Positions 3,026 to 18,150 of a DNA stretch of 48,034 bases are shown in pieces. The stretch is from a virus (lineage: Duplodnaviria > Heunggongvirae > Uroviricota > Caudoviricetes). Within the stretch, counting starts at the first letter, position 1; each line of letters starts with the position of its first letter. A program made the position numbers and the translations under genes. The stretch lies in IMG/VR virus record IMGVR_UViG_3300029079_000001, one strand, 5' to 3'. The notes below the pieces were generated by a model that was given only the letters and a program-made list of their open reading frames with translations, had not been told where the DNA came from and made no database searches.

Positions 3026-3053
3026 AGCCCGCCGGTTCAGGCGGGCTTTTTTG
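3026..3053 (+). terminator. Intrinsic terminator after lom
   Basis: Hairpin AGCCCGCC-GGTTCA-GGCGGGCT followed by TTTTTT. Confidence 0.7.
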
Positions 3054-3057
3054 TGGA

Positions 3058-5439
3058 GTGGATATGGCAGCAGTAAAAATCTCAGGTGTGCTGAAAGATG
3101 GTGCGGGAAAACCAATACAGAACTGCACTATTCAACTGAAGGCAAAGCGTAACAGCACCACGGTACTGGTGAACACGGTTGCCTCTGAAAATCCTGATGA
3201 AGCCGGGCGTTACAGTATGGACGTTGAGTATGGTCAGTACAGCGTCATCCTGTGGATTGAGGGTTCTCAGCCATCACATGTTGGGACCATTACCGTCTAT
3301 GAAGGTTCCAGTCCGGGGACGCTGAATGATTTTCTCGGTGCCATGACGGAAGATGATGTCATGCCGGAGGCATTGCGCCGTTTTCAGGAAATGGTGGAAG
3401 AAGCGGCACGCAACGCCGAAGCCGCTTCTCAGAGCGCAGCGGCGGCAAAGAAATCCGAAACTGCAGCGGCATCATCGAAGAACGCGGCGAAAACCTCAGA
3501 AACGAATGCAGCTAACAGCGCACAGGCGGCAGCGACCTCACAGACTGCATCGGCAAACTCCGCGACAGCAGCTAAAAAATCAGAAACCAACGCGAAAAAT
3601 AGCGAGACAGCCGCAAAGACGAGCGAAACCAACGCAAAGTCCAGCCAGACGGCAGCGAAGACCAGCGAAACGAATGCCAAAGCCAGTGAAACTGCGGCGA
3701 AAAACAGCCAGGATGCAGCGGCCCAAAGCGAGAGTGACGCAGCTGGTTCTGCAAGTGCGGCGGCTTCTTCTGCCACTGCATCAGCCAACAGTCAAAAAGC
3801 TGCAAAAACCAGCGAAACCAACGCAAAGTCCAGCCAGACGGCAGCGAAAACCAGCGAAACGAATGCCAAAGCCAGTGAAACTGCGGCGAAAAGCAGTCAG
3901 GATGCAGCAGCCGAAAGCGAGAGTGCTGCAGCTGGCTCTGCAAGCGCGGCGGCTGCTTCTGCCACTGCATCAGCCAACAGTCAAAAAGCAGCAAAAACCA
4001 GTGAAACCAATGCAAAGACAAGCGAGACTGCAGCGGCGAACTCGGCGAAAGCATCGGCAGCAAGCCAGACAGCAGCTAAAGCAAGTGAAGACGCAGCCAG
4101 AGAGTATGCAAGTCAGGCAGCAGAGCCGTATAAATATGTCTTACAGCCGCTGCCTGATGTGTGGATACCATTTAACGATTCGCTGGATATGATTACGGGC
4201 TTTTCGCCATCATATAAAAAAATTGTTATTGGTGACGATGAAATAACGATGCCTGGCGACAAGATTGTTAAGTTTAAACGTGCATCGAAAGCAACCTATA
4301 TTAACAAATCTGGTGTGCTGACAGAGGCTGCCATTGACGAGCCACGATTTGAACGTGATGGTCTGCTTATTGAGGGGCAAAGAACAAACTACATGCTCAA
4401 TTCGGAAAGCCCTGCCAGTTGGGGGCGATCGTCAAATATGGATGTGCCCGAAACAGGGACGGATAATTTTGGTTTTACCTATGGAAAGTTTGTCTGCAAC
4501 GATTCTCTGATTGGGCAAACCTCAGCCATTAATATGGCATCAATTGCTGCAACAAAGTCAGTTGATGTCTCAGGCGATAATAAATACGTGACAACCTCAT
4601 GTCGTTTTAAAACAGAACTGCAGGTAAGGTTGCGTATCCGGTTTGATAAATATGACGGTAGCGCAACAACTTTTCTTGGTGATGCGTATATTGATACACA
4701 AACGCTTGAAATTAATATGACAGGCGGTGCTGCCTCAAGGATTACAGCGAGAGTCAGAAAGGACGAAGCTACCGGATGGATTTTTGCAGAGGCAACAATT
4801 CAGGCAATTGATGGGGAGTTAAAAATAGGTTCTCAGATACAGTATTCTCCTAAGCAGGGCGGGGCAACCGTATCTGGTGACTATATTTATCTGGCCACCC
4901 CACAAGTAGAAAATGGGCCTTGTGTATCATCTTTTATTATATCAGGAACGACGGCGGCGACCCGCGCAAGCGATATAGTTACAGTTCCCATTAAGAATAA
5001 TCTTTATAATCTTCCTTTTACGGTTCTTTGTGAGGTACATAAGAACTGGTATAAAACGCCAAATGCAGCGCCGCGTGTTTTTGATACCGGCGGTCATCAA
5101 ACCGGAGCGGCTATTATTCTTGGCTTCGGTTCTTCAGCAGATTACGACGGATTTCCTTATTGCGATATTGGAGGAGCTAACAGACGGGTAAACGAAAACG
5201 CATCGCTTGAAAAAATGGTTATGGGGATGCGTGTAAAGTCAGATCAGTCTACGTGCTCAGTAAGTAACGGGCGTATATCCAGCGAAACAAAAACCACATG
5301 GTCCTGTATTCAGAACACCGCAATTATCCGTATTGGAGGCCAGACTACAGCCGGGTTACGTCATTTATTTGGTCATGTCAGGAATTTCAGAATATGGCAC
5401 AAGGCATTGACTGATGCTCAGGTGGGGGAGTCAATCTAA
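3058..5439 (+). CDS. stf: Side tail fiber protein (lambda Stf-like N-terminus, divergent AT-rich C-terminal receptor-binding part)
   Basis: N-terminus ...AAVKISGVLKDGAGKPIQNCTIQLKAKRNSTT... resembles lambda Stf; Ala/Ser/Thr-rich KTSETNAK repeat region; likely true start ATG at 3064. Confidence 0.8.
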   Translation: MDMAAVKISGVLKDGAGKPIQNCTIQLKAKRNSTTVLVNTVASENPDEAGRYSMDVEYGQYSVILWIEGSQPSHVGTITVYEGSSPGTLNDFLGAMTEDDVMPEALRRFQEMVEEAARNAEAASQSAAAAKKSETAAASSKNAAKTSETNAANSAQAAATSQTASANSATAAKKSETNAKNSETAAKTSETNAKSSQTAAKTSETNAKASETAAKNSQDAAAQSESDAAGSASAAASSATASANSQKAAKTSETNAKSSQTAAKTSETNAKASETAAKSSQDAAAESESAAAGSASAAAASATASANSQKAAKTSETNAKTSETAAANSAKASAASQTAAKASEDAAREYASQAAEPYKYVLQPLPDVWIPFNDSLDMITGFSPSYKKIVIGDDEITMPGDKIVKFKRASKATYINKSGVLTEAAIDEPRFERDGLLIEGQRTNYMLNSESPASWGRSSNMDVPETGTDNFGFTYGKFVCNDSLIGQTSAINMASIAATKSVDVSGDNKYVTTSCRFKTELQVRLRIRFDKYDGSATTFLGDAYIDTQTLEINMTGGAASRITARVRKDEATGWIFAEATIQAIDGELKIGSQIQYSPKQGGATVSGDYIYLATPQVENGPCVSSFIISGTTAATRASDIVTVPIKNNLYNLPFTVLCEVHKNWYKTPNAAPRVFDTGGHQTGAAIILGFGSSADYDGFPYCDIGGANRRVNENASLEKMVMGMRVKSDQSTCSVSNGRISSETKTTWSCIQNTAIIRIGGQTTAGLRHLFGHVRNFRIWHKALTDAQVGESI
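3622..3999 (+). repeat. Two tandem copies of a 189-bp (63-codon) unit inside stf
   Basis: AGCGAAACCAACGCAAAGTCCAGCCAGACGGCAGCGAAG... recurs at 3622 and 3811 with few mismatches. Confidence 0.8.
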
Positions 5440-5720
5440 TGAAAGATTTAACACTCAAATTTGCCGACAGGGCCGACTTTTCGGCCTTTATGGAGAGTAT
5501 TGGCTATTATGATGACGAGTCGATGCAGGATGATATTCTTATTGACGTGATAGGTAACGTGTACAAAGAAACCGGAGAACTTACTGAAGATGGCGAGCCG
5601 GTATGTGTTAAGGAAGACGGATATTTTGTAAACGTGCGCATCATTAATGATGCAAAAAAATCGTCAATATTCGATGAATACGTGGTTGCTGTTGAGCATC
5701 AACTTCGTGGCTGGATGTGA
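5439..5720 (+). CDS. Hypothetical protein (93 aa), tail-fiber associated by position
   Basis: ATG overlaps the stf stop (ATGA coupling); acidic product with no recognised motif. Confidence 0.5.
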   Translation: MKDLTLKFADRADFSAFMESIGYYDDESMQDDILIDVIGNVYKETGELTEDGEPVCVKEDGYFVNVRIINDAKKSSIFDEYVVAVEHQLRGWM

Positions 5721-5729
5721 GGAAGAAAA

Positions 5730-6770
5730 ATGGCTACATCGACAGTAATTCCTGAAGACATCAAAACGCTAAAATCCGACGTTAGCAAATTAAAAAACGA
5801 TCAAGGAAGCTACGCAACAAAATCATATGTAGACAGCAAAGATGAAACCGTTGGTGACTGGTCTGCTTCATGGTATCAGCAGGTATTGCCAACTAGCGGA
5901 GCTATATTTGGGAGAAAACTCCGCTCAACTCACCGGACGGCAGGTGTTGAGGATGCGTATTGCGAACTATACCTCAAAAAATGGATAGACAGTCCAGGTA
6001 ACGCAATGGCGCGCCTTAACCTGAACGATAACGGGACAAACATTTGCTGGGACTTTACCAACCTTTATGGCGGTACGATGATTTTTCCCGGTGACAGCGG
6101 ATACCTCAAAATGGGTAACTGCCTTATGTCATACAGCAAGCGTGGAAGTAACGCGCTTATTAAATTTGATTACACCGACACATTACAGATCAAATATGCC
6201 AATCATGGGTCAACCATGACATTAAACACACAGGGAACCGCTTATGCTGGTGTTACTGCTCAATTGTGGGGCAACTCCAGCCGTCCTGTTGTTTATGAAG
6301 TCGGTGTTGATGGTGGCGCTTATATGTTCTATGCGCAGAAAACTACCAGCAATACCTACGAATTAACGGTTAACGGCGCGTGCAATGCAAGTGCATTTAA
6401 TCAAGGCTCTGACCGGGATCTGAAAGACAATATTCAGGTGATCGATAATGCAACCGACCGCATTCGTAAAATGAACGGCTATACATACACGCTTAAAGAA
6501 AACGGTATGCCTTACGCTGGTGTTATTGCACAAGAAACCCTGGAAGCCATCCCCGAAGCCGTAGGGTCTATGATGAAATATCCAGACGGCGGGAGTGGAT
6601 TAGATGGAGAAGAAGGTGAACGGTATTACACTGTAGATTATTCTGGTGTTACTGGCTTGCTTGTTCAGGTAGCCAGAGAGTCAGACGACAGAATAACAGC
6701 ACTGGAAGAAGAAAACGCAGAATTAAGACAAAGATTATCTGCAATTGAGGCGGCGCTTGCGTCTAAATAA
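5730..6770 (+). CDS. Tail fiber / tail spike tip protein with C-terminal intramolecular chaperone (peptidase S74-like) domain
   Basis: C-terminal ...NQGS-DRDLKDNI... matches the S-D-x-x-x-K autoproteolysis motif, followed by a coiled-coil tail (EEENAELRQRLSAIEAALASK). Confidence 0.65.
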   Translation: MATSTVIPEDIKTLKSDVSKLKNDQGSYATKSYVDSKDETVGDWSASWYQQVLPTSGAIFGRKLRSTHRTAGVEDAYCELYLKKWIDSPGNAMARLNLNDNGTNICWDFTNLYGGTMIFPGDSGYLKMGNCLMSYSKRGSNALIKFDYTDTLQIKYANHGSTMTLNTQGTAYAGVTAQLWGNSSRPVVYEVGVDGGAYMFYAQKTTSNTYELTVNGACNASAFNQGSDRDLKDNIQVIDNATDRIRKMNGYTYTLKENGMPYAGVIAQETLEAIPEAVGSMMKYPDGGSGLDGEEGERYYTVDYSGVTGLLVQVARESDDRITALEEENAELRQRLSAIEAALASK

Positions 6771-6776
6771 TATTAA

Positions 6777-6798
6777 GGGGCCGAGCGCCCCGTTTTAT
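6777..6798 (+). terminator. Intrinsic terminator after the fiber genes
   Basis: Hairpin GGGGCC-GAG-CGCCCC followed by GTTTTATT. Confidence 0.6.
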
Positions 6799-6806
6799 TG
6801 GGTAGG

Positions 6807-7106
6807 ATGAAAATGGATATAACACCTTTCCTTCATGCTCTTTGTGCTGTGGCTGCGCAGCTACTGATTGGTCTTTTTACCGGGAACTGGGCTTACGGAG
6901 CGATAGCCGGTTGTACGTTCTTCATTGCGCGTGAACACACCCAGGCAGAATATCGCTGGATTGAAATGTTCGGGCATGGCAAGCGGATTAACATGCCGTG
7001 GTGGGGCGGTTTTGATCCGCGCGTGTGGGATGTGGCAAGCCTGATGGATTTTGCTGTGCCGGTGGTGGCGTGTCTGCTGGTCTGGCTGTTGGTTTATCGT
7101 GGGTGA
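6807..7106 (+). CDS. Small integral membrane protein (about 95-100 aa, 2-3 predicted TM segments), moron-like
   Basis: Hydrophobic stretches LHALCAVAAQLLIGLF and FAVPVVACLLVWLLVY; the ORF track starts at TTG 6798, but ATG 6807 or 6813 (better RBS) is more likely. Confidence 0.5.
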   Translation: MKMDITPFLHALCAVAAQLLIGLFTGNWAYGAIAGCTFFIAREHTQAEYRWIEMFGHGKRINMPWWGGFDPRVWDVASLMDFAVPVVACLLVWLLVYRG

Positions 7107-7240
7107 AAAAAGGTGAGCTGTATATGCAACGGAGGAAGAAACCCCGTTGCTGGAAGCCTGGAAAAAGTATCGGGTGTTGTTGAATCGTGTTGATACATCA
7201 CTATCTCCAGATATCGAGTGGCCAAGTCAACCATAAATCA

Positions 7241-7270
7241 ATATCCCCTGCAATGCAGGGGATATTTCTT
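7241..7270. terminator. Hairpin between convergent genes (membrane ORF on + and sopB on -), probable bidirectional terminator
   Basis: ATATCCCCTGCA / TGCAGGGGATAT inverted repeat with T-rich flank. Confidence 0.55.
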
Positions 7271-8234
7271 AATTATCAGTAGATTGTTCCTCTAGTAACA
7301 ACTCAATTCTGCTTAGTATTTCTTTAGATATTTTTCGGCTATCAATTTTTATAGTTACAAAATTACCTTTATATCTAGCCGTGATCCCTTCCCCATATTT
7401 TTTCTCGTCTTTTGTTTTTTCCTCGTCGCCAACCAGAACAGAGTCAGATAATATTTGTATAATCCGTGAAGCTTCTAAATCCTCGCCGTTTTTTTTAATT
7501 GCCAGAAGATGATGAGCAGCATTGCTCATGGCAGCCATGTTTTTTTTGTAGACCTTAAACAAAGAATCTCCAGCACGAGCTGACAGTTCTCCTGGATGAT
7601 TGAAGATAGCTAATATATCTTTTGGTAGACCAGCTGTATTAATACAGCGAGTGATAATATTTCTGTCTATATTTTCAGCCTCGGCTAATGCTTTAACGTT
7701 ACCATCAAAGTCATTTAGCTTGCGTAAGTATCTCTTTCCTCTTTCGTATGCACTAATAGGCCTATAATCGTTACCAATTTGGGATAACCAATGCATCTGT
7801 TCATCGTCGAGATCACCTATTAAGACGCGATAGTCACATCCTGTTAATATCGCTGCTTTTCTTCTACGTGAGCCGTCAGCGACTTCAACGATTCCAGACA
7901 CTTTTCTGGCGAAAGCTGGATTTTGTTGTCCAGACGTTAGAAAAGATGGGATTAAATCGGCTAGAGAGGATTCATTTAATAAATCTTGATCGCGTTCATT
8001 ACCTAGCCATACCATTGTTGCCATTTCAACTTTATCTGCGGGAATTGTCTCTAACTTAAAGTTAACATTACGTCCGCATACTGGCAAAGTTATGCTGTTA
8101 CCGGTTAATGAACTCAGTTGACGTTTTAAATCACCAACCATAGGTGATACGGGCTGATGTTCAGGGGCATGATGATTATTACTCATAATGCGATTAATAT
8201 CTGGAGCATTTTTTAGAAGAGAGCGCTGTTTCAT
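7269..8234 (-). CDS. sopB: Partition protein SopB (ParB-type centromere-binding protein)
   Basis: 321 aa; ParB-like motif ...GSRRRKAAILTGCDYRVLIGDLDDEQ...; translationally coupled downstream of sopA. Confidence 0.8.
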   Translation of the reverse strand: MKQRSLLKNAPDINRIMSNNHHAPEHQPVSPMVGDLKRQLSSLTGNSITLPVCGRNVNFKLETIPADKVEMATMVWLGNERDQDLLNESSLADLIPSFLTSGQQNPAFARKVSGIVEVADGSRRRKAAILTGCDYRVLIGDLDDEQMHWLSQIGNDYRPISAYERGKRYLRKLNDFDGNVKALAEAENIDRNIITRCINTAGLPKDILAIFNHPGELSARAGDSLFKVYKKNMAAMSNAAHHLLAIKKNGEDLEASRIIQILSDSVLVGDEEKTKDEKKYGEGITARYKGNFVTIKIDSRKISKEILSRIELLLEEQSTDN

Positions 8235-9400
8235 TATTCGTTCTCCCAGCGAGGTTTTATTAGATCATCAAAAATTTCTCGGCAAACAGGGTCCCATATA
8301 GAAACAGCATTTCTCCATGCATTCAATGTTGAACGTTGGTTTGCTGCTTGTTCAAATACTGTTCTCATTTTTATCTGGCCTTTACCTACTTCATCGGTAA
8401 CGCGTACAACCTGACGTAATACCATTGATCCCCATGTATTTCTTATTTGTTCTTCCATCCATCGTGATTGATTCCCTGTAGTGAGACTATATTTAGTCAG
8501 AAGTAAGCGAACGGTTGGCTCAAATCCACCTAGGTCAACGCTTTCCAATAGATCGAGAAGCATTGTGAAAAACTGTAGAACAGAAGCGTAATCAAATAAT
8601 TCTGCAGGTGTAGCAACAACAATAACGTCAGCGGCACAAACAACGTTAATGGTTCCTGTACCGAGGTTCGGAGCACTATCTATAACGATAACATCGTAGT
8701 TATCCCAAACTGATTCAATAGCTGCGCGCAGCATAAGGTGTGGAGGATGAGGCAATTTACCCTGAGCATGATATTGCATGAGATCTGTTTCTATACGATG
8801 TAAAGCTAGGCAGCTAGGGATAATGTCTAGCCCAGGCCAACATGTTGGCTTTATAGCATATTCAGCGTTATCGCGTTCTCCTAAGTAAAATGGCAGTAAA
8901 GTATCCTCGGCATGGATATGTAAATCAGGAACATAACCGTGATACATAGAGGCCGTGCCTTGAGGATCGTTACCTTCAACCAAAAGAACACGATGACCTT
9001 GTAATGCTAACCATTGAGCTTGATGTACCGCAGACGATGTTTTATAAACGCCGCCTTTGTGTGACATAACGGCAAGCACAACAGGGTTTTTATCTTGTGG
9101 TCGTTGGTTTGGGTTGCCAAAAACTGCTCGCATACTGTTGATTTGATCTATGGTATAACCAGCACGACGTTCAATTCTTCCTCTCATTTCAAAGTCAGGT
9201 GCAGGTAAACGCCCGCTCTTCTCAGCATCTCTAATTGCTTGAGGAGTTACACCAATTAAATCTGCTACTTCAGTTATACCCCATCGGCGGGTGATACGCC
9301 GAGCTTCAGGACTATCATCACCGAATTGAGCGATTGCAATTGCTTGGGTCATTTCTTGACCTCTCGTAACACAATCTTGCAATAACTTTTTCAAAGACAT
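8234..9400 (-). CDS. sopA: Partition ATPase SopA (ParA/Walker-type, F SopA-like)
   Basis: 388 aa; deviant Walker A MSHKGGVYKTS; extensive similarity to recalled F-plasmid SopA (HTH ...AIAIAQFGDDSPEARRITRRW...). Confidence 0.9.
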   Translation of the reverse strand: MSLKKLLQDCVTRGQEMTQAIAIAQFGDDSPEARRITRRWGITEVADLIGVTPQAIRDAEKSGRLPAPDFEMRGRIERRAGYTIDQINSMRAVFGNPNQRPQDKNPVVLAVMSHKGGVYKTSSAVHQAQWLALQGHRVLLVEGNDPQGTASMYHGYVPDLHIHAEDTLLPFYLGERDNAEYAIKPTCWPGLDIIPSCLALHRIETDLMQYHAQGKLPHPPHLMLRAAIESVWDNYDVIVIDSAPNLGTGTINVVCAADVIVVATPAELFDYASVLQFFTMLLDLLESVDLGGFEPTVRLLLTKYSLTTGNQSRWMEEQIRNTWGSMVLRQVVRVTDEVGKGQIKMRTVFEQAANQRSTLNAWRNAVSIWDPVCREIFDDLIKPRWENE

Positions 9401-10047: not shown

Positions 10048-11949
10048 ATGAGCAAAGTAAAAATCGGTGAATTAATAAACTCACTTGTTAGCGATGTTGA
10101 GTCAATAGATAACTCTGACCGTCCTCAAGGGGAAAAAACAAAAAAAATAAAGGCTGTTGCATTAAAATTTAAAAATGCATTATTTAATGACAAGCGAAAG
10201 TTTAGGGGGAAAGGATTAGAAAAAAGAATTACAGCCAACACATTCAATGCCTATATGAGCAGGGCCAGAAAACGGTTTGATGATAAACTTCATCATAGCT
10301 TTGAAAAAAATATACATCGCCTATCTGAAAAGTATCCTTTATATAATGAGGAGCTATTGTCATGGCTTTCTCTACCTGCTGCCGATATTCGCCAGAGAAT
10401 GTCAGCTTTACAGGCAAAATTAAAATTAATTCTCCCTTTATCAGAAGATTTATCTAATATCAGAATTGGTGATAACAAAAGTCATAATAAGTTATTAAAA
10501 TTATCAAATAAATATAAAGAGTGGCAATTCGCCATATCTGATTTAACTAGCGATAACTGGAAAGATAAGCGCGATTATTTATATAAATTACTACAGCAAG
10601 GATCTGCCTTACTTGAGGAGTTGAATCAGCTAAAAGTTAACCATGAGATTCTCTATCATCTTCAACTAAGCCCTGCCGAACGCGCATCTATCCAGCAACG
10701 ATGGGCGGACGTTCTGCACAATAAGAAACGTAACGTGGTGGTCATTGATTACCCTAAATATATGCAAGCTATTTACGATATTATAAATAGCCCTGCTACA
10801 TTAAATAATCTAAACACTCGTTCAGGTATGGCTCCTTTGGCATTTGCACTTGCAGCATTGTCAGGAAGACGAATGATTGAGATTATGTATCAAGGTACAT
10901 TTACTGTTTCTGGTAAGTATACCGTTGATTTTTTAGGCCAAGCAAAAAAAAGAACTTCTGATGATATAACCAGAAAAATATATACATTATGCGAAGCAAA
11001 AACATTTGTTTATTTAATAAATGTACTTCGCTCATGCCCAGCAGCATCTGATTTTGATGATGTCGTTAAAGGTTATGGAGATAACGACACACGCTCTGAA
11101 AACGGACGGATTAATGCCATATTAGCAAAGGCTTTTAACCCGTGGGTTAAATCATTTTTCAAAGATGACCGCCGTGTTTATAAAGATAGTCGTGCTATTT
11201 ATGCCCGTATTGCGTATGAAATGTTTTTCCGCGTAGATCCTCGTTGGAAAAACGTAGATGAGGATGTTTTCTTTATGGAAATTTTAGGCCATGACGATGA
11301 AAACACTCAATTACACTATAAGCAATTCAAGCTGGCCAACTTCTCAAAGACATGGAGGCCAAATACTGGAAACGAAAATACCAGGCTGGAAGCATTGCAG
11401 CAGCTTGATGACGAAATGCCAGGATTCGCCAGAGGAGATGCCGGGGTTCGTCTGCATAACACAGTTAAGCAGCTGGTAGAGCAGGACCCCTCTATAAAAA
11501 TCACGAACAGCACTCTAAGAGCATTCAAATTTAGCCCTACAATGATTAGTCGATACCTGGAATTTGCTGCTGATGCTCTGGGGCAATTTGTTGGCGAAAA
11601 TGGACAATGGCAGCTGAAAATAGATTCTCCAGAAATCGTTATGCCTGACGAAGAAGAGCTGGAAGCAATACCTGAACAGACGGATGAATTATCAGAGGAT
11701 GACGATCTGGATGACGACGAAATTGAGATAGAGGAAGAGGAAGAGGAAGAGGAAGAGAGCGTAGAAGAACAGCAACCGCCCGCGCCTTCTTCACCTGTAT
11801 CTAAGCCGGTATTTAAGCCCGTGAGAAATATTGGTGATGGCTCATACGTTGTTGAGTTTCATTATAATGGCCAGAATTATGCTTGGTCCGGCATTGCAAA
11901 CAGCCCTATATCAGCAATGCAGTTAGCATGGCTGACATATTTCGGATAA
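10048..11949 (+). CDS. telN: Protelomerase TelN (telomere resolvase)
   Basis: 633 aa; N15 TelN-like sequence throughout with an acidic EEEEEEE C-terminal region; directly adjacent to the palindromic target. Confidence 0.9.
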   Translation: MSKVKIGELINSLVSDVESIDNSDRPQGEKTKKIKAVALKFKNALFNDKRKFRGKGLEKRITANTFNAYMSRARKRFDDKLHHSFEKNIHRLSEKYPLYNEELLSWLSLPAADIRQRMSALQAKLKLILPLSEDLSNIRIGDNKSHNKLLKLSNKYKEWQFAISDLTSDNWKDKRDYLYKLLQQGSALLEELNQLKVNHEILYHLQLSPAERASIQQRWADVLHNKKRNVVVIDYPKYMQAIYDIINSPATLNNLNTRSGMAPLAFALAALSGRRMIEIMYQGTFTVSGKYTVDFLGQAKKRTSDDITRKIYTLCEAKTFVYLINVLRSCPAASDFDDVVKGYGDNDTRSENGRINAILAKAFNPWVKSFFKDDRRVYKDSRAIYARIAYEMFFRVDPRWKNVDEDVFFMEILGHDDENTQLHYKQFKLANFSKTWRPNTGNENTRLEALQQLDDEMPGFARGDAGVRLHNTVKQLVEQDPSIKITNSTLRAFKFSPTMISRYLEFAADALGQFVGENGQWQLKIDSPEIVMPDEEELEAIPEQTDELSEDDDLDDDEIEIEEEEEEEEESVEEQQPPAPSSPVSKPVFKPVRNIGDGSYVVEFHYNGQNYAWSGIANSPISAMQLAWLTYFG

Positions 11950-13970: not shown

Positions 13971-14162
13971 TTACTCCCCGTTCACCGAAAATTCACGATA
14001 GAAACGTTTCCACATACGATAAGTCTGCGCAAATTGTTCACCACGAAACATCGCCTTCCTGGCCTTCATGTTTTCCTTGTGAGACTTTCGGTCTATGAAC
14101 CAAAACCATTGATGGAACACACAAAGCAAGAGACACAAAGATAATATCCAATCATTACCCAT
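13971..14162 (-). CDS. Small membrane protein (63 aa), translationally coupled to the repA stop
   Basis: ATG at 14162 overlaps the repA stop; TM segment WILSLCLLLCVFHQWFWFI; the ORF track gives a longer 13971..14279 frame. Confidence 0.5.
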   Translation of the reverse strand: MGNDWILSLCLLLCVFHQWFWFIDRKSHKENMKARKAMFRGEQFAQTYRMWKRFYREFSVNGE

Positions 14163-17100
14163 AGAAAGCGCCCTGCTCTTCGTAGCTGCATGAGCTATTC
14201 CCCGTAATGTATTCACGTAACCGCCGCAGCTCATTGCTGGAAAGGTGATCCATGAACTCTGTGAGGTACAGGGATGCAAACGTCATAGCTATGCTGGCTG
14301 ATGACCATGATGACATAGTGGCCAACTCCTCACTGGAAAGCGCACTCATCGCCCAGGACTCAGGTACAGCCACTGGCAACACGGCCAAAGCCTCAGAAAT
14401 TACTGAATGAGGGGCGTTTTGAACCTGCTCGTTTGTGGATCGCGTTTTATCATCCATATATATATTGAGATCCAAATCGCGATCCATTTCGATGGCTGTC
14501 TTCTCGGCTTTACGCGTTTTTAGGGTTAGGCCATCTTTCTGACGCTGAACAAGAATATCCAGCATAAATGCCGCTGATTCAGGCTCAACAAAACGCAAGG
14601 TTGGACGCTTATCGCCGTCTCTGCCGCGACGTTTACCTGTTTTAAGGCCAAGAGAGTCGCAAATGTTTTTAAACAACGCTTCCGGCACTTTAGGCTTCCC
14701 TTTTGGCGTCATAAAACCACCAATGTGCAGAACGTTATTCAACAGGTCACGGCGTTCGGCTGTCATGAGGTTATCTCGAGCGAATTTGAGACGCTCCTGA
14801 GTCGCCTCGCCGGTCATAGTCTCAGGGTTGATACCGCAGTCGATAAAGTACTGCCGGAGAGTTGCTGATTTAAGCGCATAGAAACCGCGCGCCCCGACTT
14901 CAACAGTAGGAGTAGCTTTTACCTTGTGATCGATTATTCCAGGGAATTTAGTTTTAAAGACATCATCAGCCTGCTCGCGAGTCATCGCGGTCACTACAAA
15001 ATATTGCCACTGTCCCGCCTGACGGTATGCGTAGGTAAAATTGATGGCTGCTTCTTCCCGGTCGTAACGACGAGCTGTTACCTCATCTAAAAGCATTGTT
15101 TCATAGCGGCGAACTTTGTCTCGAGCACCATCGAAATAGAATTTCAGCGTGCCTTCTTCAACCGGTAGTTTCAGTTCGTTTTCAATATCCCAGCGGACAA
15201 GTTTTGCCTGTTCTTCAAGCGTCAGCGCGCGTTTTTTTAGCAGTTCTTCACGCTCTGATTCTTGTGGAGTTTCTGTATTGAGGTGCAGATCCAGTGTCTG
15301 TTCCCACACAATATCCCGCGCTTCTTTACGCAGATCTTTACCGATATCATTCGCAGCATAATCGGTGGCCAGCGGTGATACCTTATAACCGTCGCTGTGC
15401 ATGATGCAGATCATGTTGCTGGCGTAGTCGTTACGCGCAGTCGCTTCAATTGCGGCTGCTTTAATTTTCATCCTGGTAAAGTCGGTATTGGCCACCCCCA
15501 TTGATATACGGTCGCCATCGAAAACGACATCCGTCAGTTCACCGTTCATACCTGCGGTAGCAAGCAATGCCTGGGCGAATGCTCGTTCTATTTTTTGCGG
15601 GTCAGTTTCTCGTTTTGCACGAGCTTTATCAAAGCCGATAATAAATTCTTTTGCTGTACGGTCGCGGCGTAGCATTTGCACTGCGTCGCTGGGTACAACT
15701 TCACCACAGAACATGCCGAAATGACGGTCAAAATGTTTTTGCTCAATCGACACGCCGGATGAAATAGACGGGCTATAAATCAGGCCGTCGTATTTTTTGA
15801 CCATCTTTTTCGGTTGATTGGTAAATGCTTCAACTTCTGGCTCTGGTTTGTTTTTCTGGTTTACACACAGAAATTTCTTACCAGGAAAATGCATTCTCAG
15901 GGTGGCTGTCACATCTTCTGCAAAGGTGGAGCTGTCGGTGGCCAACATGATTTTTTCGCCATCCGATACAGCTTTCACCACCTCGGTCATGATGCGATCT
16001 TTTTCTGTATAAAAAACCCGGATTGGCTCACCTGTTTCGCGGTTGCGAACATCAACAGGTAATTCAATTACGTGGATCTGCAGCCATGCCGGTAAACCTA
16101 GTTCTTCACGGCGTTTCATAGCCAGTTCAGCCAGGTCAACCAGTAGATCGTTCGCATCAGCATCCACCATGATTGGGTGTTGTTCCGTTCTGGCCAGCGC
16201 GTCAATTAGCGTATTGAATACAGCAACCGGGTTTTCCATAGCCCGACCGGAAAGAACGGCACGTAGCCCTTGCGTGGCCTCGTCAAAGCCAAAATAGTCG
16301 TGCTGGCGCATCAACGGTTGCCAGCAGTTTTTAACAATCGAGTTTATGCAGATGGTCAGTTTACTGGCGTATGGAGCAATTTCCTGATAGCCAGGGTCCT
16401 GATAGTGCAGGATATCGGCTTTTACACCTTTTCCTTCTGTCATCATTTCCCACAGGCCACCAATAAGGGAGACACGGTGAGCAACAGAGATACCACGTTC
16501 TGAGCTATGCATTAACGGTCGTAACAATCCAGTAGATTTGCCGGAACCCATACCAGCACGGACGATGACTATCCCCTGTAGTGATTGCACGTACTTCAGG
16601 ACATCATCGGTCATTACCGAAGTTTCAAAACGCTTATAGGTGATATGTTGAGGGCGTTTATTGGGATCAGTTATGCGTTCGCTGAAAGAGCGCGGAGCCT
16701 GGGCAATACGGCACTTTTTATTCAGGCGACGGGCAATGTGGTCTTTTACCGTAGCACGATAGATATTTTCCAGTCCCATTTCACGCAGAACGATGCAGAA
16801 CATGTTAAATAAATCTGACGGACTGTTAGGAACCGGGCAGGTTAGCATGCCAATATCCACCGCTCTCAGCAGCTCTTTGGCAAAAGTACGACGGTTATCC
16901 CGCTTAATTGTCTTCAGGCGGTTGAGCGTCAGAGATAGCAAATCAGTACCGGTTTTCAGGCGGTTTGCTGTTGCAAATAGTTGACGTGCTGTTTCACGAA
17001 GTCCACGTAGTTTGTGCAGGTCGTTGAAGTCACTGCACTCCATTTGCGGATCGTCTTCAAAAGTTGGATAGACGCAGCGGACATCGTTGAATTTCGATAA

Positions 17101-18150
17101 GATTTCATAGCCAGTCCGCAGGCCGGTATTCCCTTTTCCTTCTGTGGCAGATTTCCGGTCATTATCCAGTGCGCAGGTGATTTTTGCCGCCGGGTACATG
17201 TTTACCAGTTGTTCCACAACATGAACCATGTTGTTAGCGGATACAGCGACAACCACAGCGTCAAAGCGTTTATCTTTTTTCGTGGCAAGCCAGATGGATG
17301 CACCAGTAGCAAAACCTTCTGTAACAGCGATGTTTTGCGCCCCTTTCAGCTCACCGATAACAAAGCAGGCACCGACGAAATCGCCGCTGGTTACTGCGCT
17401 GGTCTGGTATTTCCCACCTTGTTTGTCGATTCGCTGCCAACCCACAATACGACCATCATAACGACCGTCCAGGTGAGCCAGAGGGATAGCCATATATGTG
17501 GTTGGCCCCCGGCTCCATTTCGCACTGTCGTGACTGGTCACGCGACGCACATCACATGAACTAAAAACGTCACGAATACCTTTTTTAATCGCATATGGCC
17601 ATGAGCCGTCTTCAGCCTGAGCATGTTCCCACGCGCTGTGGAATGCCAGCCATCCCAGCAAACGTTCATGGTCCATTTGGTTGTTTTTCAGGTCATTAAT
17701 TCGTTTTTGTTCTTCACGGCGACGACGTGCTTCGGCCTGACGTTCTATTCTTTCCCGTTCTTCTTCCGGTTGTGCGACCACGGTCGCATTATTCCGTTGT
17801 TGCTCACGGCGATATTCAGAAAACAGGAAGGAGAAACCGCTCCATGAGCCAGCATCGCTGCCTTTATGGACGAAGTTAATGAACGGGTAATCAATCCCTT
17901 TGCTGTGTTCCAGCCTGGAGTAAATTTCTACGCGTCCTTTCAGGCTCTTTTCGAGAGCTTCTGGAGATGTTTTATTGTATGAAGAGTAACGCTCAACCCC
18001 CCCGCGAGGGTTGAGTTGGATGTTGTCGGAACAGGCAGACCAGTTGATACCAGCCATCTGTGCCAGCTCGGTTAGTTCATCCCGTGCTGCTTCAATTAGC
18101 GAGAACGGATCGCTGCCAAAGCGATCCGCATAGAAATCGTTTAATGTCAT
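14155..18150 (-). CDS. repA: Replication protein RepA (multidomain primase-helicase, N15 RepA-like)
   Basis: 1331 aa; Walker A GMGSGKST in the helicase part; position and size match N15 repA; sopC-like palindrome #1 lies inside it at 17771..17788. Confidence 0.85.
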   Translation of the reverse strand: MTLNDFYADRFGSDPFSLIEAARDELTELAQMAGINWSACSDNIQLNPRGGVERYSSYNKTSPEALEKSLKGRVEIYSRLEHSKGIDYPFINFVHKGSDAGSWSGFSFLFSEYRREQQRNNATVVAQPEEERERIERQAEARRRREEQKRINDLKNNQMDHERLLGWLAFHSAWEHAQAEDGSWPYAIKKGIRDVFSSCDVRRVTSHDSAKWSRGPTTYMAIPLAHLDGRYDGRIVGWQRIDKQGGKYQTSAVTSGDFVGACFVIGELKGAQNIAVTEGFATGASIWLATKKDKRFDAVVVAVSANNMVHVVEQLVNMYPAAKITCALDNDRKSATEGKGNTGLRTGYEILSKFNDVRCVYPTFEDDPQMECSDFNDLHKLRGLRETARQLFATANRLKTGTDLLSLTLNRLKTIKRDNRRTFAKELLRAVDIGMLTCPVPNSPSDLFNMFCIVLREMGLENIYRATVKDHIARRLNKKCRIAQAPRSFSERITDPNKRPQHITYKRFETSVMTDDVLKYVQSLQGIVIVRAGMGSGKSTGLLRPLMHSSERGISVAHRVSLIGGLWEMMTEGKGVKADILHYQDPGYQEIAPYASKLTICINSIVKNCWQPLMRQHDYFGFDEATQGLRAVLSGRAMENPVAVFNTLIDALARTEQHPIMVDADANDLLVDLAELAMKRREELGLPAWLQIHVIELPVDVRNRETGEPIRVFYTEKDRIMTEVVKAVSDGEKIMLATDSSTFAEDVTATLRMHFPGKKFLCVNQKNKPEPEVEAFTNQPKKMVKKYDGLIYSPSISSGVSIEQKHFDRHFGMFCGEVVPSDAVQMLRRDRTAKEFIIGFDKARAKRETDPQKIERAFAQALLATAGMNGELTDVVFDGDRISMGVANTDFTRMKIKAAAIEATARNDYASNMICIMHSDGYKVSPLATDYAANDIGKDLRKEARDIVWEQTLDLHLNTETPQESEREELLKKRALTLEEQAKLVRWDIENELKLPVEEGTLKFYFDGARDKVRRYETMLLDEVTARRYDREEAAINFTYAYRQAGQWQYFVVTAMTREQADDVFKTKFPGIIDHKVKATPTVEVGARGFYALKSATLRQYFIDCGINPETMTGEATQERLKFARDNLMTAERRDLLNNVLHIGGFMTPKGKPKVPEALFKNICDSLGLKTGKRRGRDGDKRPTLRFVEPESAAFMLDILVQRQKDGLTLKTRKAEKTAIEMDRDLDLNIYMDDKTRSTNEQVQNAPHSVISEALAVLPVAVPESWAMSALSSEELATMSSWSSASIAMTFASLYLTEFMDHLSSNELRRLREYITGNSSCSYEEQGAFYG
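17771..17788. repeat. sopC-like centromere palindrome #1 (inside repA)
   Basis: TGTGCGACCACGGTCGCA. Confidence 0.6.

What the first reader, a model, noticed from the sequence alone, without database searches (positions are those of the whole stretch)
3058..6770. Tail fiber locus: Stf with a 189-bp tandem duplication, followed by a separate fiber protein with a self-cleaving chaperone domain instead of tfa
The Stf N-terminus is lambda-like, but its C-terminal two thirds are AT-rich and unrelated. A perfect-frame 63-codon tandem duplication lies in the Ala/Ser-rich shaft (3622..3999). The locus continues with a 93-aa protein and a 346-aa protein ending in a peptidase-S74-type intramolecular chaperone motif (GS-DRDLK). 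This points to a composite or branched fiber and a recent host-range module exchange.
Basis: partly seen in the sequence, partly recalled or inferred. Interest (0 to 1): 0.45.

Follow-up and report, generated by a model that had tools for sequence, protein, structure and literature searches.

The report
Two-receptor side tail fibre cassette
This is the side-tail-fibre locus of an N15-like E. coli phage, in which a lambda-type fibre stalk carries a swapped-in sugar-binding tip, a small partner protein and a second, self-cleaving fibre; the cassette is common in coliphages and its general design has already been described, so it is ordinary.

Summary
Every sequence observation checks out. Stf (3058/3064-5439) has a lambda-type collar domain and a heptad-repeat shaft. 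The shaft holds an in-frame 189-bp tandem duplication (3622-3999; 178/189 nt, 59/63 aa). A 93-aa ORF and a 346-aa ORF follow. The 346-aa protein ends in a Peptidase_S74 intramolecular chaperone (Pfam E=6.7e-14; Ser227/Lys232).

Three points were missed. The Stf C-terminal 438 aa form a two-domain lectin-like tip: an RcGTA head-spike-fibre domain plus a LamG-like domain. The 93-aa gene sits exactly where tfa sits in lambda. A 39-codon tfa remnant (7117-7236) marks the replacement.

The cassette is 96% identical to a virulent Nonagvirus. It matches at least in part in 1862 of 5426 complete E. coli genomes, and nearly in full in 394. It has the same gene order as the T5-like IrisVonRoten Gp22-Gp23-Gp24 fibre. 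There a distal chaperone-bearing fibre is predicted, in print, to dock on a galectin-tipped proximal fibre.

The distal gene is optional, since ev243, ev207 and PhiR40_1 lack it. Its first ~17-25 aa are conserved while its receptor domain varies. The duplication is an old, shared length polymorphism (1, 2 or 3 copies).

Verdict: a real but ordinary modular dual-receptor fibre. Physical docking is inferred, and only the 93-aa protein's role is open.

The parts
3058..5439 (+). Stf side tail fibre gene (793 aa from GTG 3058; probably 791 aa from ATG 3064)
   Evidence: ORF. phrog_1419 matches end to end. 96% aa identity to the Stf of phages 2G7b and PhiR63_1.
3070..3459 (+). Stf N-terminal collar/attachment domain (aa 5-134)
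   Evidence: Pfam PF08400 E=6.5e-64. Aa 5-97 match PDB 9e7m, the Ur-lambda StfN chain, at E=1.8e-46.
3460..4122 (+). Ala/Ser/Thr/Lys-rich heptad-repeat shaft (aa 135-355), equivalent to the proximal coiled coil
   Evidence: Composition is strictly periodic modulo 7 over 221 aa, for example Ser 30/31 at one phase and Ala 28/32 at another. 56-57% identical to lambda orf-401. In Ur-lambda this stretch is a coiled coil, residues 102-393 (PMC12617516).
3622..3999 (+). Two tandem 189-bp (63-codon, 9-heptad) copies; the wider array with a partial third copy spans 3609-4035
   Evidence: 178/189 nt and 59/63 aa identical. Relatives carry 1, 2 or 3 copies.
4123..4365 (+). Conserved neck of the foreign C-terminal module (aa 356-436; motif QPLPDVWIPFNDSL...); left recombination junction
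   Evidence: The ESCO3 and tunus DNA matches begin at window positions 4144 and 4110. This stretch is 77-100% conserved across alleles whose lectin parts diverge.
4366..4968 (+). RcGTA head-spike-fibre-like carbohydrate-binding domain (aa 437-637)
   Evidence: NCBIfam NF048003 E=5.8e-13, 49.8 bits against a cut-off of 36. A family profile hits PDB 6tb9 chain F3, head spike fiber Rcc01080, at E=4e-40.
4969..5436 (+). LamG / concanavalin-A-like C-terminal domain (about aa 638-793)
   Evidence: Pfam Laminin_G_3 matches 28 of 45 family members, best E=1.9e-11. The window protein itself scores E=0.0061, below the cut-off. The profile weakly hits pentraxins and an S-layer jelly-roll. 63% identical to the IrisVonRoten Gp22 C-terminal region, whose terminal domain was described as galectin-like (PMC11990801).
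5439..5720 (+). 93-aa acidic protein (10.7 kDa, pI 4.2) in the tfa position; function unknown
   Evidence: It overlaps the stf stop by 1 nt, as tfa does in lambda. phrog_1361, unknown function. 186 phage records carry it, always beside a fibre gene. AF2 pLDDT 83, with no informative fold match.
5730..6770 (+). 346-aa distal fibre / second receptor-binding protein with a C-terminal S74 intramolecular chaperone
   Evidence: phrog_4563 tail fibre. Pfam PF13884. A family profile hits T4 gp34 and S16 gp37 fibre chains.
5730..5810 (+). Conserved N-terminal anchor (MATSTVIPEDIKTLKSDVSKLK...; predicted helix 10-27)
   Evidence: The anchor is kept in the 346-aa, ~234-aa, tunus 245-aa, VogelGryff 388-aa and IrisVonRoten 574-aa alleles, whose receptor domains differ. 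Helix.
6408..6767 (+). Intramolecular chaperone domain (aa 227-346); predicted cleavage before Ser227 (codon 6408-6410), Lys232 at 6423-6425
   Evidence: The top Foldseek hit is the MyRF ICA domain 7dc3 (prob 0.90, E=0.05, weak). S16 gp37 chaperone 6f45 matches at E=2.1e-9 by profile.
6777..6791 (+). GC-rich hairpin followed by GTTTTATT: terminator-like site that closes the 346-aa gene
   Evidence: It is absent from two-gene loci, where the 93-aa gene runs straight into the membrane-protein gene.
7117..7236 (+). Non-coding remnant of tfa (the last 39 codons and the stop)
   Evidence: tblastn with lambda Tfa aa 156-191 gives 83% identity, E=4.9e-15. The translation has no in-frame start codon.

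Best explanation
The locus encodes a modular side tail fibre with two receptor binders.

Shown by sequence:
- Stf keeps the lambda-type collar domain, which fixes a trimer to the tail tip, and a heptad coiled-coil shaft.
- From about aa 356 the ancestral receptor tip and most of tfa were replaced by a mobile cassette.
- The cassette supplies a conserved neck and two lectin-like domains on Stf itself: one RcGTA-head-spike-fibre-like, one LamG-like.
- It also supplies a 93-aa partner gene coupled to stf, and an optional gene for a 346-aa fibre with its own terminator.

Inferred:
- The 346-aa protein trimerises with the help of its C-terminal S74 chaperone.
- It then cuts itself before Ser227 using the Ser227/Lys232 dyad, which leaves a ~24.7-kDa mature tip.
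- It docks by its conserved N-terminal ~25 residues on the conserved distal end of Stf, on the 93-aa protein, or on both. This gives a composite or branched fibre that can bind two surface glycans or receptors.
- The 93-aa protein most likely binds the conserved part of the Stf C-terminal module, as an assembly factor or cap. It may also form part of the docking site.
- The 63-aa duplication adds nine heptads to the shaft. At about 1.5 A rise per residue (textbook value) that is about 9 nm, and it keeps the coiled-coil register. It acts as a length polymorphism.
For: Collar and shaft.

Cassette borders and foreign origin: GC step; 96.3% nt identity to Nonagvirus ESCO3 from window 4144 to 6698; tfa scar.

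Lectin domains: NF048003 hit; profile hit to PDB 6tb9 chain F3 at E=4e-40 and to pentraxins; Laminin_G_3 in 28/45 relatives. The RcGTA head spike fibre binds capsule experimentally (PMC10218006).

S74 domain.

Same three-gene order in lambda-like, N15-like, T1-like, Seuratvirus, Nonagvirus and T5-like phages.

Homology to IrisVonRoten: Stf CTD 63% to Gp22, 93-aa 38% to Gp23, anchor 10/17 identical to Gp24. There the distal fibre is predicted to attach to the galectin-tipped proximal fibre (PMC11990801).

Anchor versus receptor domain: the anchor is conserved while receptor domains differ. In 60 phage records the anchor match lies just after the 93-aa gene wherever I compared positions.

Reassortment: five Stf lectin alleles (98, 77, 58, 45 and 41% identity) combine freely with 346-aa and 234-aa distal alleles in 80 IMG/VR loci.

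Optional distal gene: ev243, ev207 and PhiR40_1 lack it, as do 62 of 63 informative IMG/VR loci of those two 93-aa types. The 93-aa gene is under purifying selection there (pN 0.26, pS 0.86).

Copy number of the 63-aa unit.
Against: No physical evidence was available here, because multimer prediction and virion proteomics could not be run. Docking of the 346-aa protein on Stf therefore rests on gene order, the conserved anchor and a published prediction for a homologue.

The AF2 monomer of the 346-aa protein is mediocre (pLDDT 66), and its structural matches to chaperone and fibre folds are weak (E about 0.05).

The window protein's own LamG match is below Pfam's threshold.

The signals for the 93-aa protein conflict. 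It is kept without a distal fibre, which favours a role with Stf. Yet its allele class tracks the presence of the distal gene perfectly (72/72 against 78/78), and it does not co-vary with the lectin allele, which favours an adaptor role. These classes amount to only about five independent lineages, so linkage alone could explain the pattern.
Confidence: 0.7

Rival explanations
1. The 346-aa protein is an independent short fibre that attaches directly to the tail or baseplate, as the stand-alone S74 fibre gp25 of N15 is thought to do. It is not attached to Stf, so the phage has two separate fibre sets rather than a composite fibre.
For: N15 itself encodes a separate 470-aa fibre ending in an S74-type chaperone. 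No direct interaction data exist. The gene has its own terminator-like hairpin and behaves as an insertable unit.
Against: The same N-terminal anchor is found in phages with unrelated tails: lambda-like, T1-like, Queuovirinae and T5-like. It always lies directly after the lectin-tipped fibre gene and the 93-aa gene, so the only shared partners are those two proteins. The part before the receptor domain is only about 40 aa, too short for a known tail-docking domain. It shows no similarity to the N15 gp25 N-terminus.
Confidence: 0.1
2. The 93-aa protein is a structural adaptor that stays in the virion and bridges the Stf tip and the anchor of the distal fibre. It is not a transient Tfa-like assembly factor.
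For: Its allele class tracks the distal gene: the xIGN/xIGY class has the gene in 72/72 loci, and the EIGF class lacks it in 78/78. One allele (92-100% identical) works beside five very different lectin alleles and two distal-fibre alleles. The VogelGryff and IrisVonRoten 93-aa proteins group together (60%), as do their anchors (72%), while their CTDs do not.
Against: It is retained under purifying selection in many loci that have no distal fibre gene. It has the position and 1-nt overlap of tfa. The association rests on about five lineages and may be plain linkage. The fold gives no hint.
Confidence: 0.35
3. The 346-aa protein is only a trans-acting chaperone for Stf, as annotations such as 'endosialidase chaperone' and 'putative lateral tail fiber chaperone' suggest. 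It would not be a virion component.
For: Database annotations for ESCO3 and VogelGryff. It occupies the region downstream of stf where lambda has tfa.
Against: Those names simply copy the Pfam title. S74 chaperones are known to act in cis on the polypeptide that carries them (K1F endosialidase and T5 pb1; established knowledge). The protein has about 180 aa of beta-rich fibre-tip sequence before the cleavage site, which matches the C-termini of long fibres (phrog_6578, phrog_5668, phrog_5481; T4 gp34 motif). Phages lacking the gene still make this kind of Stf. The receptor part is hypervariable while the anchor is conserved.
Confidence: 0.05

Closest known systems
IrisVonRoten (Bas32, Tequintavirus) lateral tail fibre Gp22-Gp23-Gp24, described in Humolli et al. 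2025 (PMC11990801)
   Same: Same three-gene order. The proximal fibre CTD is 63% identical over 445 aa. The 92-aa middle gene is 38% identical. The distal fibre starts with the same anchor (MVTKTVIPTDITKLK) and ends in an S74 chaperone. The published AlphaFold-Multimer model has the distal fibre attached to a proximal fibre that carries a protruding galectin-like domain.
   Different: The attachment end is T5-type (LtfA-like N-terminus plus LtfC), not the lambda collar. The distal fibre is a 574-aa 'T-shaped' protein with two receptor domains, whereas here it is 346 aa with one. I found no discussion of the small middle protein in the passages of that paper that I read.
Lambda / Ur-lambda Stf-Tfa side tail fibre
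   Same: The N-terminal collar domain matches (PF08400; 9e7m, E=1.8e-46). The heptad coiled-coil shaft is 56-57% identical to orf-401. The position after J and lom is the same, as is the 1-nt stop/start overlap with the next gene.
   Different: The distal gp37-like receptor domain (orf-314) is absent, with no hit at E<0.4. Tfa is reduced to a 39-codon remnant. The receptor end is instead two lectin-like domains plus a second fibre.
Branched L-shaped tail fibres LtfA/LtfB of T5-like DT57C and DT571/2, and phiEco32 gp14/gp15
   Same: The concept is the same: a tail-attached proximal fibre carries a second fibre protein docked by a short conserved N-terminus. Both bind different O-antigens, and the proteins are proteolytically processed (PMC4728585, PMC10713586).
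   Different: In DT57C both proteins are reported to be proteolytically processed, and no small middle gene is described. Here Stf ends in lectin domains with no S74. The anchor used here gave no match outside loci carrying the 93-aa gene in 50,697 phage records, at the sensitivity of a 39-aa tblastn. That points to a different docking solution.
Peptidase S74 intramolecular-chaperone fibres and spikes (K1F endosialidase, T5 pb1, S16 gp37, MyRF ICA)
   Same: The Pfam domain, a Ser-x4-Lys dyad, a C-terminal position and a terminal long helix.
   Different: The carrier is unusually short at 346 aa. It has no tail-attachment domain of its own, only a ~25-aa anchor.
RcGTA head spike fibre Rcc01080
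   Same: It shares the domain at Stf aa 437-637 (profile E=4e-40). It binds capsular polysaccharide (PMC10218006).
   Different: It is a single subunit on a capsid-vertex spike of a gene transfer agent. Here the domain sits at the end of a trimeric tail fibre.

Membership tests
Peptidase S74 / intramolecular chaperone fibre proteins | Match to Pfam PF13884 above the gathering score | tested here: met
   E=6.7e-14, 52.4 bits against a cut-off of 22, aa 227-278.
Peptidase S74 / intramolecular chaperone fibre proteins | Catalytic Ser and Lys five residues apart at the start of the domain | tested here: met
   S227-DRDL-K232. Both residues are >=90% conserved in 54 homologues. The spacing rule itself comes from my own knowledge of K1F endosialidase and T5 pb1.
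Peptidase S74 / intramolecular chaperone fibre proteins | S74-like three-dimensional fold | tested here: inconclusive
   The AF2 monomer has pLDDT 66. The best Foldseek hit is the MyRF ICA domain 7dc3 at E=0.054, prob 0.90. A profile hit to the S16 gp37 chaperone 6f45 at E=2.1e-9 supports homology by sequence.
Peptidase S74 / intramolecular chaperone fibre proteins | Autoproteolytic release of the C-terminal domain after trimer folding | not testable with these tools
   Needs protein expression and S227A/K232A mutants.
Lambda-type side tail fibre (Stf) | N-terminal collar domain PF08400 that binds the tail tip | tested here: met
   E=6.5e-64. Matches 9e7m at E=1.8e-46.
Lambda-type side tail fibre (Stf) | Coiled-coil proximal shaft | tested here: met
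   Unbroken 7-residue periodicity over aa 135-355. 56-57% identical to lambda orf-401.
Lambda-type side tail fibre (Stf) | gp37-like distal receptor domain assembled by Tfa | tested here: not met
   No similarity to lambda orf-314. Only the last 39 codons of tfa remain, with no start codon.
Two-protein (proximal plus distal) lateral fibre of the IrisVonRoten Gp22-24 type | Proximal fibre ending in the conserved neck plus lectin/galectin-like module | tested here: met
   63% identity over 445 aa to Gp22.
Two-protein (proximal plus distal) lateral fibre of the IrisVonRoten Gp22-24 type | ~92-aa gene between the two fibre genes | tested here: met
   38% identity, E=1e-23. Same position.
Two-protein (proximal plus distal) lateral fibre of the IrisVonRoten Gp22-24 type | Distal fibre with the conserved N-terminal anchor and a C-terminal chaperone domain | tested here: met
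   Anchor 10/17 identical; chaperone domain aligned at 28% identity over 144 aligned positions.
Two-protein (proximal plus distal) lateral fibre of the IrisVonRoten Gp22-24 type | Physical attachment of the distal trimer to the proximal fibre | not testable with these tools
   Only single-chain prediction was available here. The published support is an AlphaFold-Multimer model of the homologue (PMC11990801).
RcGTA head-spike-fibre domain (NF048003) | Match above NCBIfam's cut-off | tested here: met
   49.8 bits against 36, aa 437-637. Profile against PDB 6tb9 chain F3 gives E=4e-40.
LamG / concanavalin-A-like lectin domain (PF13385) | Match above Pfam's gathering score | tested here: inconclusive
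   The window protein scores 17.1 bits against 27.6 (E=0.0061). However, 28 of 45 homologues match at E<=0.01, best 1.9e-11, and the profile weakly hits pentraxins.
Tfa / Caudo_TAP tail fibre assembly proteins (as a home for the 93-aa protein) | Sequence or fold similarity to a known Tfa | tested here: not met
DT57C LtfA/LtfB branched fibre | LtfB/phiEco32-gp15-type N-terminal anchor | tested here: not met
   A 39-aa anchor query found 60 records, none of them DT57C-like or phiEco32. Sensitivity is limited for so short a query.

The most novel reading that the evidence does not exclude
The 93-aa protein family (phrog_1361) may be an unrecognised universal 'plug' for fibre assembly. It has no Pfam or NCBIfam model and no informative fold match. 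Under this reading it is a virion-retained adaptor that sits on the conserved end of lectin-tipped fibres. It would let any S74-processed distal fibre bearing the MATxTVIPxDIxxLK anchor be swapped in or out. That would explain how the same cassette works on lambda-like, N15-like, T1-like, 9g-like and T5-like tails, with an rV5-like relative of the small protein also seen.
Probability: 0.3. Interest if true: 0.5.

Novelty: new member of a known kind. Interest (0 to 1): 0.25.

Why it matters
The locus is a clean natural example of plug-and-play host-range engineering. A conserved stalk carries a swappable lectin tip and an optional second receptor binder with a conserved anchor, plus a length-tunable shaft. 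The junctions are defined in the sequence: QPLPDVW at the shaft/CTD border, the 93-aa gene, and the ~25-aa anchor. This could guide rational retargeting of lambda-type or N15-type vectors and phage-derived delivery particles. It also singles out one small, widespread protein of unknown function as worth an experiment. As biology it is not surprising. Multi-protein lateral fibres and S74 chaperones are well known, and this cassette matches at least in part in about a third of complete E. coli genomes (near-full-length in 394 of 5426).

Tried and rejected
- **Sequence search of the 93-aa protein.** Pfam, NCBIfam and PDB sequences gave nothing.
- **AF2 of the 346-aa monomer.** It was too poor (pLDDT 66) for a decisive structural test of the S74 fold. 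Sequence profiles carry that claim instead.
- **Structure prediction of the Stf CTD.** I did not run it. A profile built from 44 diverse representatives replaced it.
- **A docking determinant in the Stf neck.** I compared 'TMPGDK..FKRAS' with 'QVASDK..FSRAS'. Eleven loci (12 counting L184, left unclassified by the script) have the first form but no distal gene, so I rejected it.
- **A recent, private duplication.** Rejected. The two copies differ at 11/189 nt. The two-copy form is shared by relatives with different CTDs, and 1- and 3-copy forms coexist.
- **Long ORFs inside the shaft as genes (3353-4192 +, 3572-4063 -, 3429-3788 -).** Rejected as by-products of the repeat composition.
- **N15 gp25 or the lambda Stf C-terminus as relatives of the distal parts.** No meaningful similarity was found.

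Full report
**Context.** The window is an N15-like telomere phage, that is, a linear plasmid prophage. It encodes a protelomerase (10048-11949), a SopA/SopB partition pair on the minus strand (7269-9400) and a large primase/replicase (14155-18150). Positions 6771-30000 are 96.6% identical to phage PhiR46_1 over 82% of their length. Unlike N15 itself, its tail tip is lambda-like: the J C-terminus (17-2329), Lom (2400-2999; Pfam Ail_Lom E=2e-127) and then the fibre locus.

**Check of the observation.**
- Tandem Repeats Finder reports a 189-bp period with 2.3 copies, 91% matches and no indels at 3609-4035.
Positions 3622-3810 and 3811-3999 share 178/189 nt and 59/63 aa, in frame, with 6 synonymous and 4 non-synonymous codon differences.
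- GC drops from about 55% to 42-45% near position 4100 and stays low to 6770.
- The Stf N-terminus is lambda-type. Pfam phage_tail_N covers aa 5-134 at E=6.5e-64. Aa 5-97 match chain 9e7m at E=1.8e-46, which comes from the Ur-lambda cryo-EM study (PMC12617516).
- The 346-aa protein carries Peptidase_S74 at aa 227-278, with E=6.7e-14 and 52.4 bits against a gathering score of 22.
- The motif G226-S227-DRDL-K232 is present.
- One correction: the foreign part is the C-terminal ~55% of Stf, from about aa 351-363, not two thirds. The shaft is still 56-57% identical to lambda orf-401 up to about aa 331.

**The shaft and the duplication.** Residues 135-355 show an unbroken 7-residue periodicity. One phase is Ser in 30 of 31 positions and another is Ala in 28 of 32. 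In Ur-lambda the corresponding region, residues 102-393, is the proximal trimeric coiled coil (PMC12617516).
- The duplicated unit is 63 aa, or nine heptads, so the register is preserved. At about 1.5 A rise per residue (textbook value) each copy would add roughly 9 nm. This is inference.
- The duplication is neither private nor recent. The two-copy form occurs in 2G7b, PhiR63_1, PhiR46_1 and ev207.
- Among 54 full-length Stf proteins from IMG/VR loci, 50 have two copies, 3 have one and 1 has three (L069, 857 aa).
- Among the 120 closest database clusters, the 790/791-aa two-copy forms coexist with 727/728-aa one-copy forms, exactly 63 aa shorter.
- It is therefore a standing length polymorphism of the shaft module.

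**The Stf C-terminal module.** It is in fact a large, well-defined family. The last 438 aa hit 1992 cluster representatives at E<=0.001, in most full-length hits listed at the C-terminal end of the protein.
- NCBIfam places aa 437-637 in NF048003, 'phage head spike fiber domain', at 49.8 bits against a cut-off of 36.
- A profile of 45 diverse members hits the solved RcGTA head spike fibre Rcc01080 (6tb9 chain F3) at E=4e-40. It also hits several phage fibre and baseplate chains.
- The last ~150 aa hit pentraxins and an S-layer jelly-roll weakly. Pfam Laminin_G_3 matches 28 of the 45 members. The window protein alone is below threshold (E=0.0061).
- The RcGTA head spike fibre binds capsular polysaccharide experimentally (PMC10218006).
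- So Stf carries its own lectin-like receptor-binding end.
- Comparison with PhiR46_1 shows its internal structure. The neck (aa 360-450) and the last ~45 aa stay 63-87% identical, while aa 450-750 drop to 17-47%. That is a conserved frame around a swappable sugar-binding core.

**The 346-aa protein.**
- Besides the S74 domain, Ser227 and Lys232 are >=90% conserved in 54 homologues.
- The profile hits the chaperone-bearing tip of S16 gp37 (6f45, E=2.1e-9) and a fibre motif of T4 gp34 (4uxe, E=1.7e-9).
- PHROG families of long fibres align with its C-terminal two thirds.
- The AF2 monomer is only moderate (pLDDT 66). It shows a beta-rich middle part and a long terminal helix (304-344). Its best Foldseek hit is the MyRF ICA domain at E=0.054, the eukaryotic S74 relative (that relationship is from my own knowledge). 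This is consistent but not decisive.
- Cleavage before Ser227 would leave a 24.7-kDa mature protein and a 13.2-kDa chaperone fragment. Cleavage is inferred from the family.

**Comparative anatomy.** This carries the argument.
- The order 'fibre with this CTD, then a ~92-aa gene, then a gene ending in an S74 chaperone' recurs in lambda-like Nesevirus 2G7b, N15-like PhiR46_1, Nonagvirus ESCO3, T1-like tunus, Seuratvirus VogelGryff and T5-like IrisVonRoten.
- The third proteins differ completely in their receptor parts: 346, ~234, 245, 388 and 574 aa. All begin with the same anchor: MATSTVIPEDIKTLK, MATVTVIPSDITKLK..MAKTITNIPKDITNLK or MVTKTVIPTDITKLK.
- A 39-aa anchor query finds 60 phage records. 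Wherever I compared positions, the match lies directly after the 93-aa homologue.
- These phages have unrelated tails. The only shared candidate docking partners are therefore the conserved part of the CTD and the 93-aa protein.
- For IrisVonRoten the CTD is 63% identical, the small protein 38% and the anchor 10/17. Humolli et al. 2025 published an AlphaFold-Multimer model in which the distal chaperone-bearing fibre attaches to the proximal fibre, whose C-terminus bears a protruding 'galectin-like' domain proposed as an extra receptor-binding domain (PMC11990801).
- Branched LtfA/LtfB fibres of DT57C are an older functional precedent (PMC4728585, PMC10713586).

**Modularity.**
- In 80 IMG/VR loci that share the window's 93-aa allele (92-100% identical), five Stf lectin alleles occur: 98, 77, 58, 45 and 41% identical to the window. 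They are combined freely with 346-aa sub-alleles (about 95% and about 77%) and with a ~234-aa allele.
- The distal gene is optional. Phages ev243, ev207 and PhiR40_1 go from the 93-aa gene, after about 10 nt, straight into the 97-aa membrane-protein gene that follows the fibre genes here.
- So do 38/38 and 24/25 informative IMG/VR loci of those two 93-aa types.
- In the window the distal gene is closed by its own hairpin and T-run (6777-6791). It looks like an insertable unit.

**Module exchange.**
- CTD+93+346 is 96.3% identical at the DNA level to virulent Nonagvirus ESCO3, from window 4144 to 6698. T1-like tunus matches from 4110. Both start at the GC step and at the conserved QPLPDVW junction.
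- Lambda's distal Stf (orf-314) has no counterpart here. The last 39 codons of tfa survive without a start codon at 7117-7236, 83% identical to lambda Tfa aa 156-191, E=4.9e-15.
- So an ancestral stf-3'/tfa segment was replaced.
- The cassette is very common. Part of it matches in 1862 of 5426 complete E. coli genomes, and >=80% of it in 394. The best match is a 47-kb plasmid record at 99.8%.

**The 93-aa protein.** This is the one open point.
- Basic facts:
  - It overlaps the stf stop codon by one base, exactly as tfa does in lambda.
  - It is acidic (pI 4.2).
  - It belongs to a family with 380 database clusters and 186 phage records, always next to a fibre gene, including a shorter relative in rV5-like myoviruses.
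  - It has no Pfam or NCBIfam model.
- For a role with Stf: it is kept under purifying selection where there is no distal fibre. Between ev243 and ev207, pN is 0.26 and pS is 0.86.
- For an adaptor role: its allele class tracks the distal gene perfectly, 72/72 against 78/78. It does not co-vary with the lectin allele. However, only about five lineages are involved.
- I commit to this reading: it binds the conserved part of the Stf C-terminal module as an assembly factor or cap. There is a substantial chance (about 0.35) that it stays in the virion as part of the docking site.

**Verdict.** The feature is a member of a known, widespread kind of modular two-receptor lateral fibre. It is a useful, well-delimited example of host-range cassette exchange, but not a surprise.

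Noticed in passing
window 7117-7236 (+): A remnant of tfa. It translates to [39 protein letters not shown], 83% identical to lambda Tfa aa 156-191. It has no in-frame start and sits just before the bidirectional hairpin at 7240-7266 and sopB. It is the scar of the replaced stf-tfa end.
   Followed up: yes
window 6813-7106 (+): A 97-aa hydrophobic protein (MDITPFLHALCAVA...; phrog_1443, no known function). It follows the fibre genes in both three-gene and two-gene loci of lambda-like and N15-like phages. It may be a lysogenic-conversion or exclusion membrane protein. The ORF listing starts it at TTG 6798, but relatives start at the ATG at 6813.
   Followed up: partly
window 3353-4192 (+), 3572-4063 (-), 3429-3788 (-): Long ORFs in other frames and on the other strand inside the Stf shaft. 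They encode Arg/Lys/Gln-rich or Leu/Phe/Ala-rich low-complexity products. They are by-products of the Ala/Ser/Lys codon repeat, not genes. Lambda has the analogous orf206b.
   Followed up: partly
window 3026-3047 (+) and 2352-2369: Strong terminator-like hairpins after lom (8 pairs plus TTTTTTG) and after J. The fibre genes therefore lie behind terminators and presumably need Q-type antitermination of late transcription.
   Followed up: no
GenBank records MG065692 'Campylobacter phage C13', also C11/C12/C14, and 'Listeria phage LM 4-14-1/4-11-1': These records hold coliphage-type fibre cassettes: the CTD at 80% nt identity and homologues of the 93-aa protein. They look like mislabelled or contaminant T5-like or rV5-like sequences.
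   Followed up: no
L003 7795-8505 (ESCO3) and L005 6818-7483 (VogelGryff): In Queuovirinae the three-gene module is followed by a 221-236-aa Gly-rich protein with C-terminal Cys clusters (MSDMTLIPGGLGGGFGGEAGAA...CCGC). This protein is absent from the window and its role is unknown.
   Followed up: no
window 1-48034; NZ_JAUDQL020000005.1 (47,077 bp): The window appears to be a whole, permuted N15-like genome with a lambda-type J/Lom/Stf tail tip. A 47-kb E. coli MARGA_3 plasmid record matches the cassette at 99.8%.
   Followed up: partly
L015, L024, L082 (IMG/VR loci): Some prophages carry truncated distal-fibre genes (227, 157 and 189 aa) that lose the S74 domain through frameshift or premature stop. 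This is either decay of the optional gene or sequencing error.
   Followed up: no
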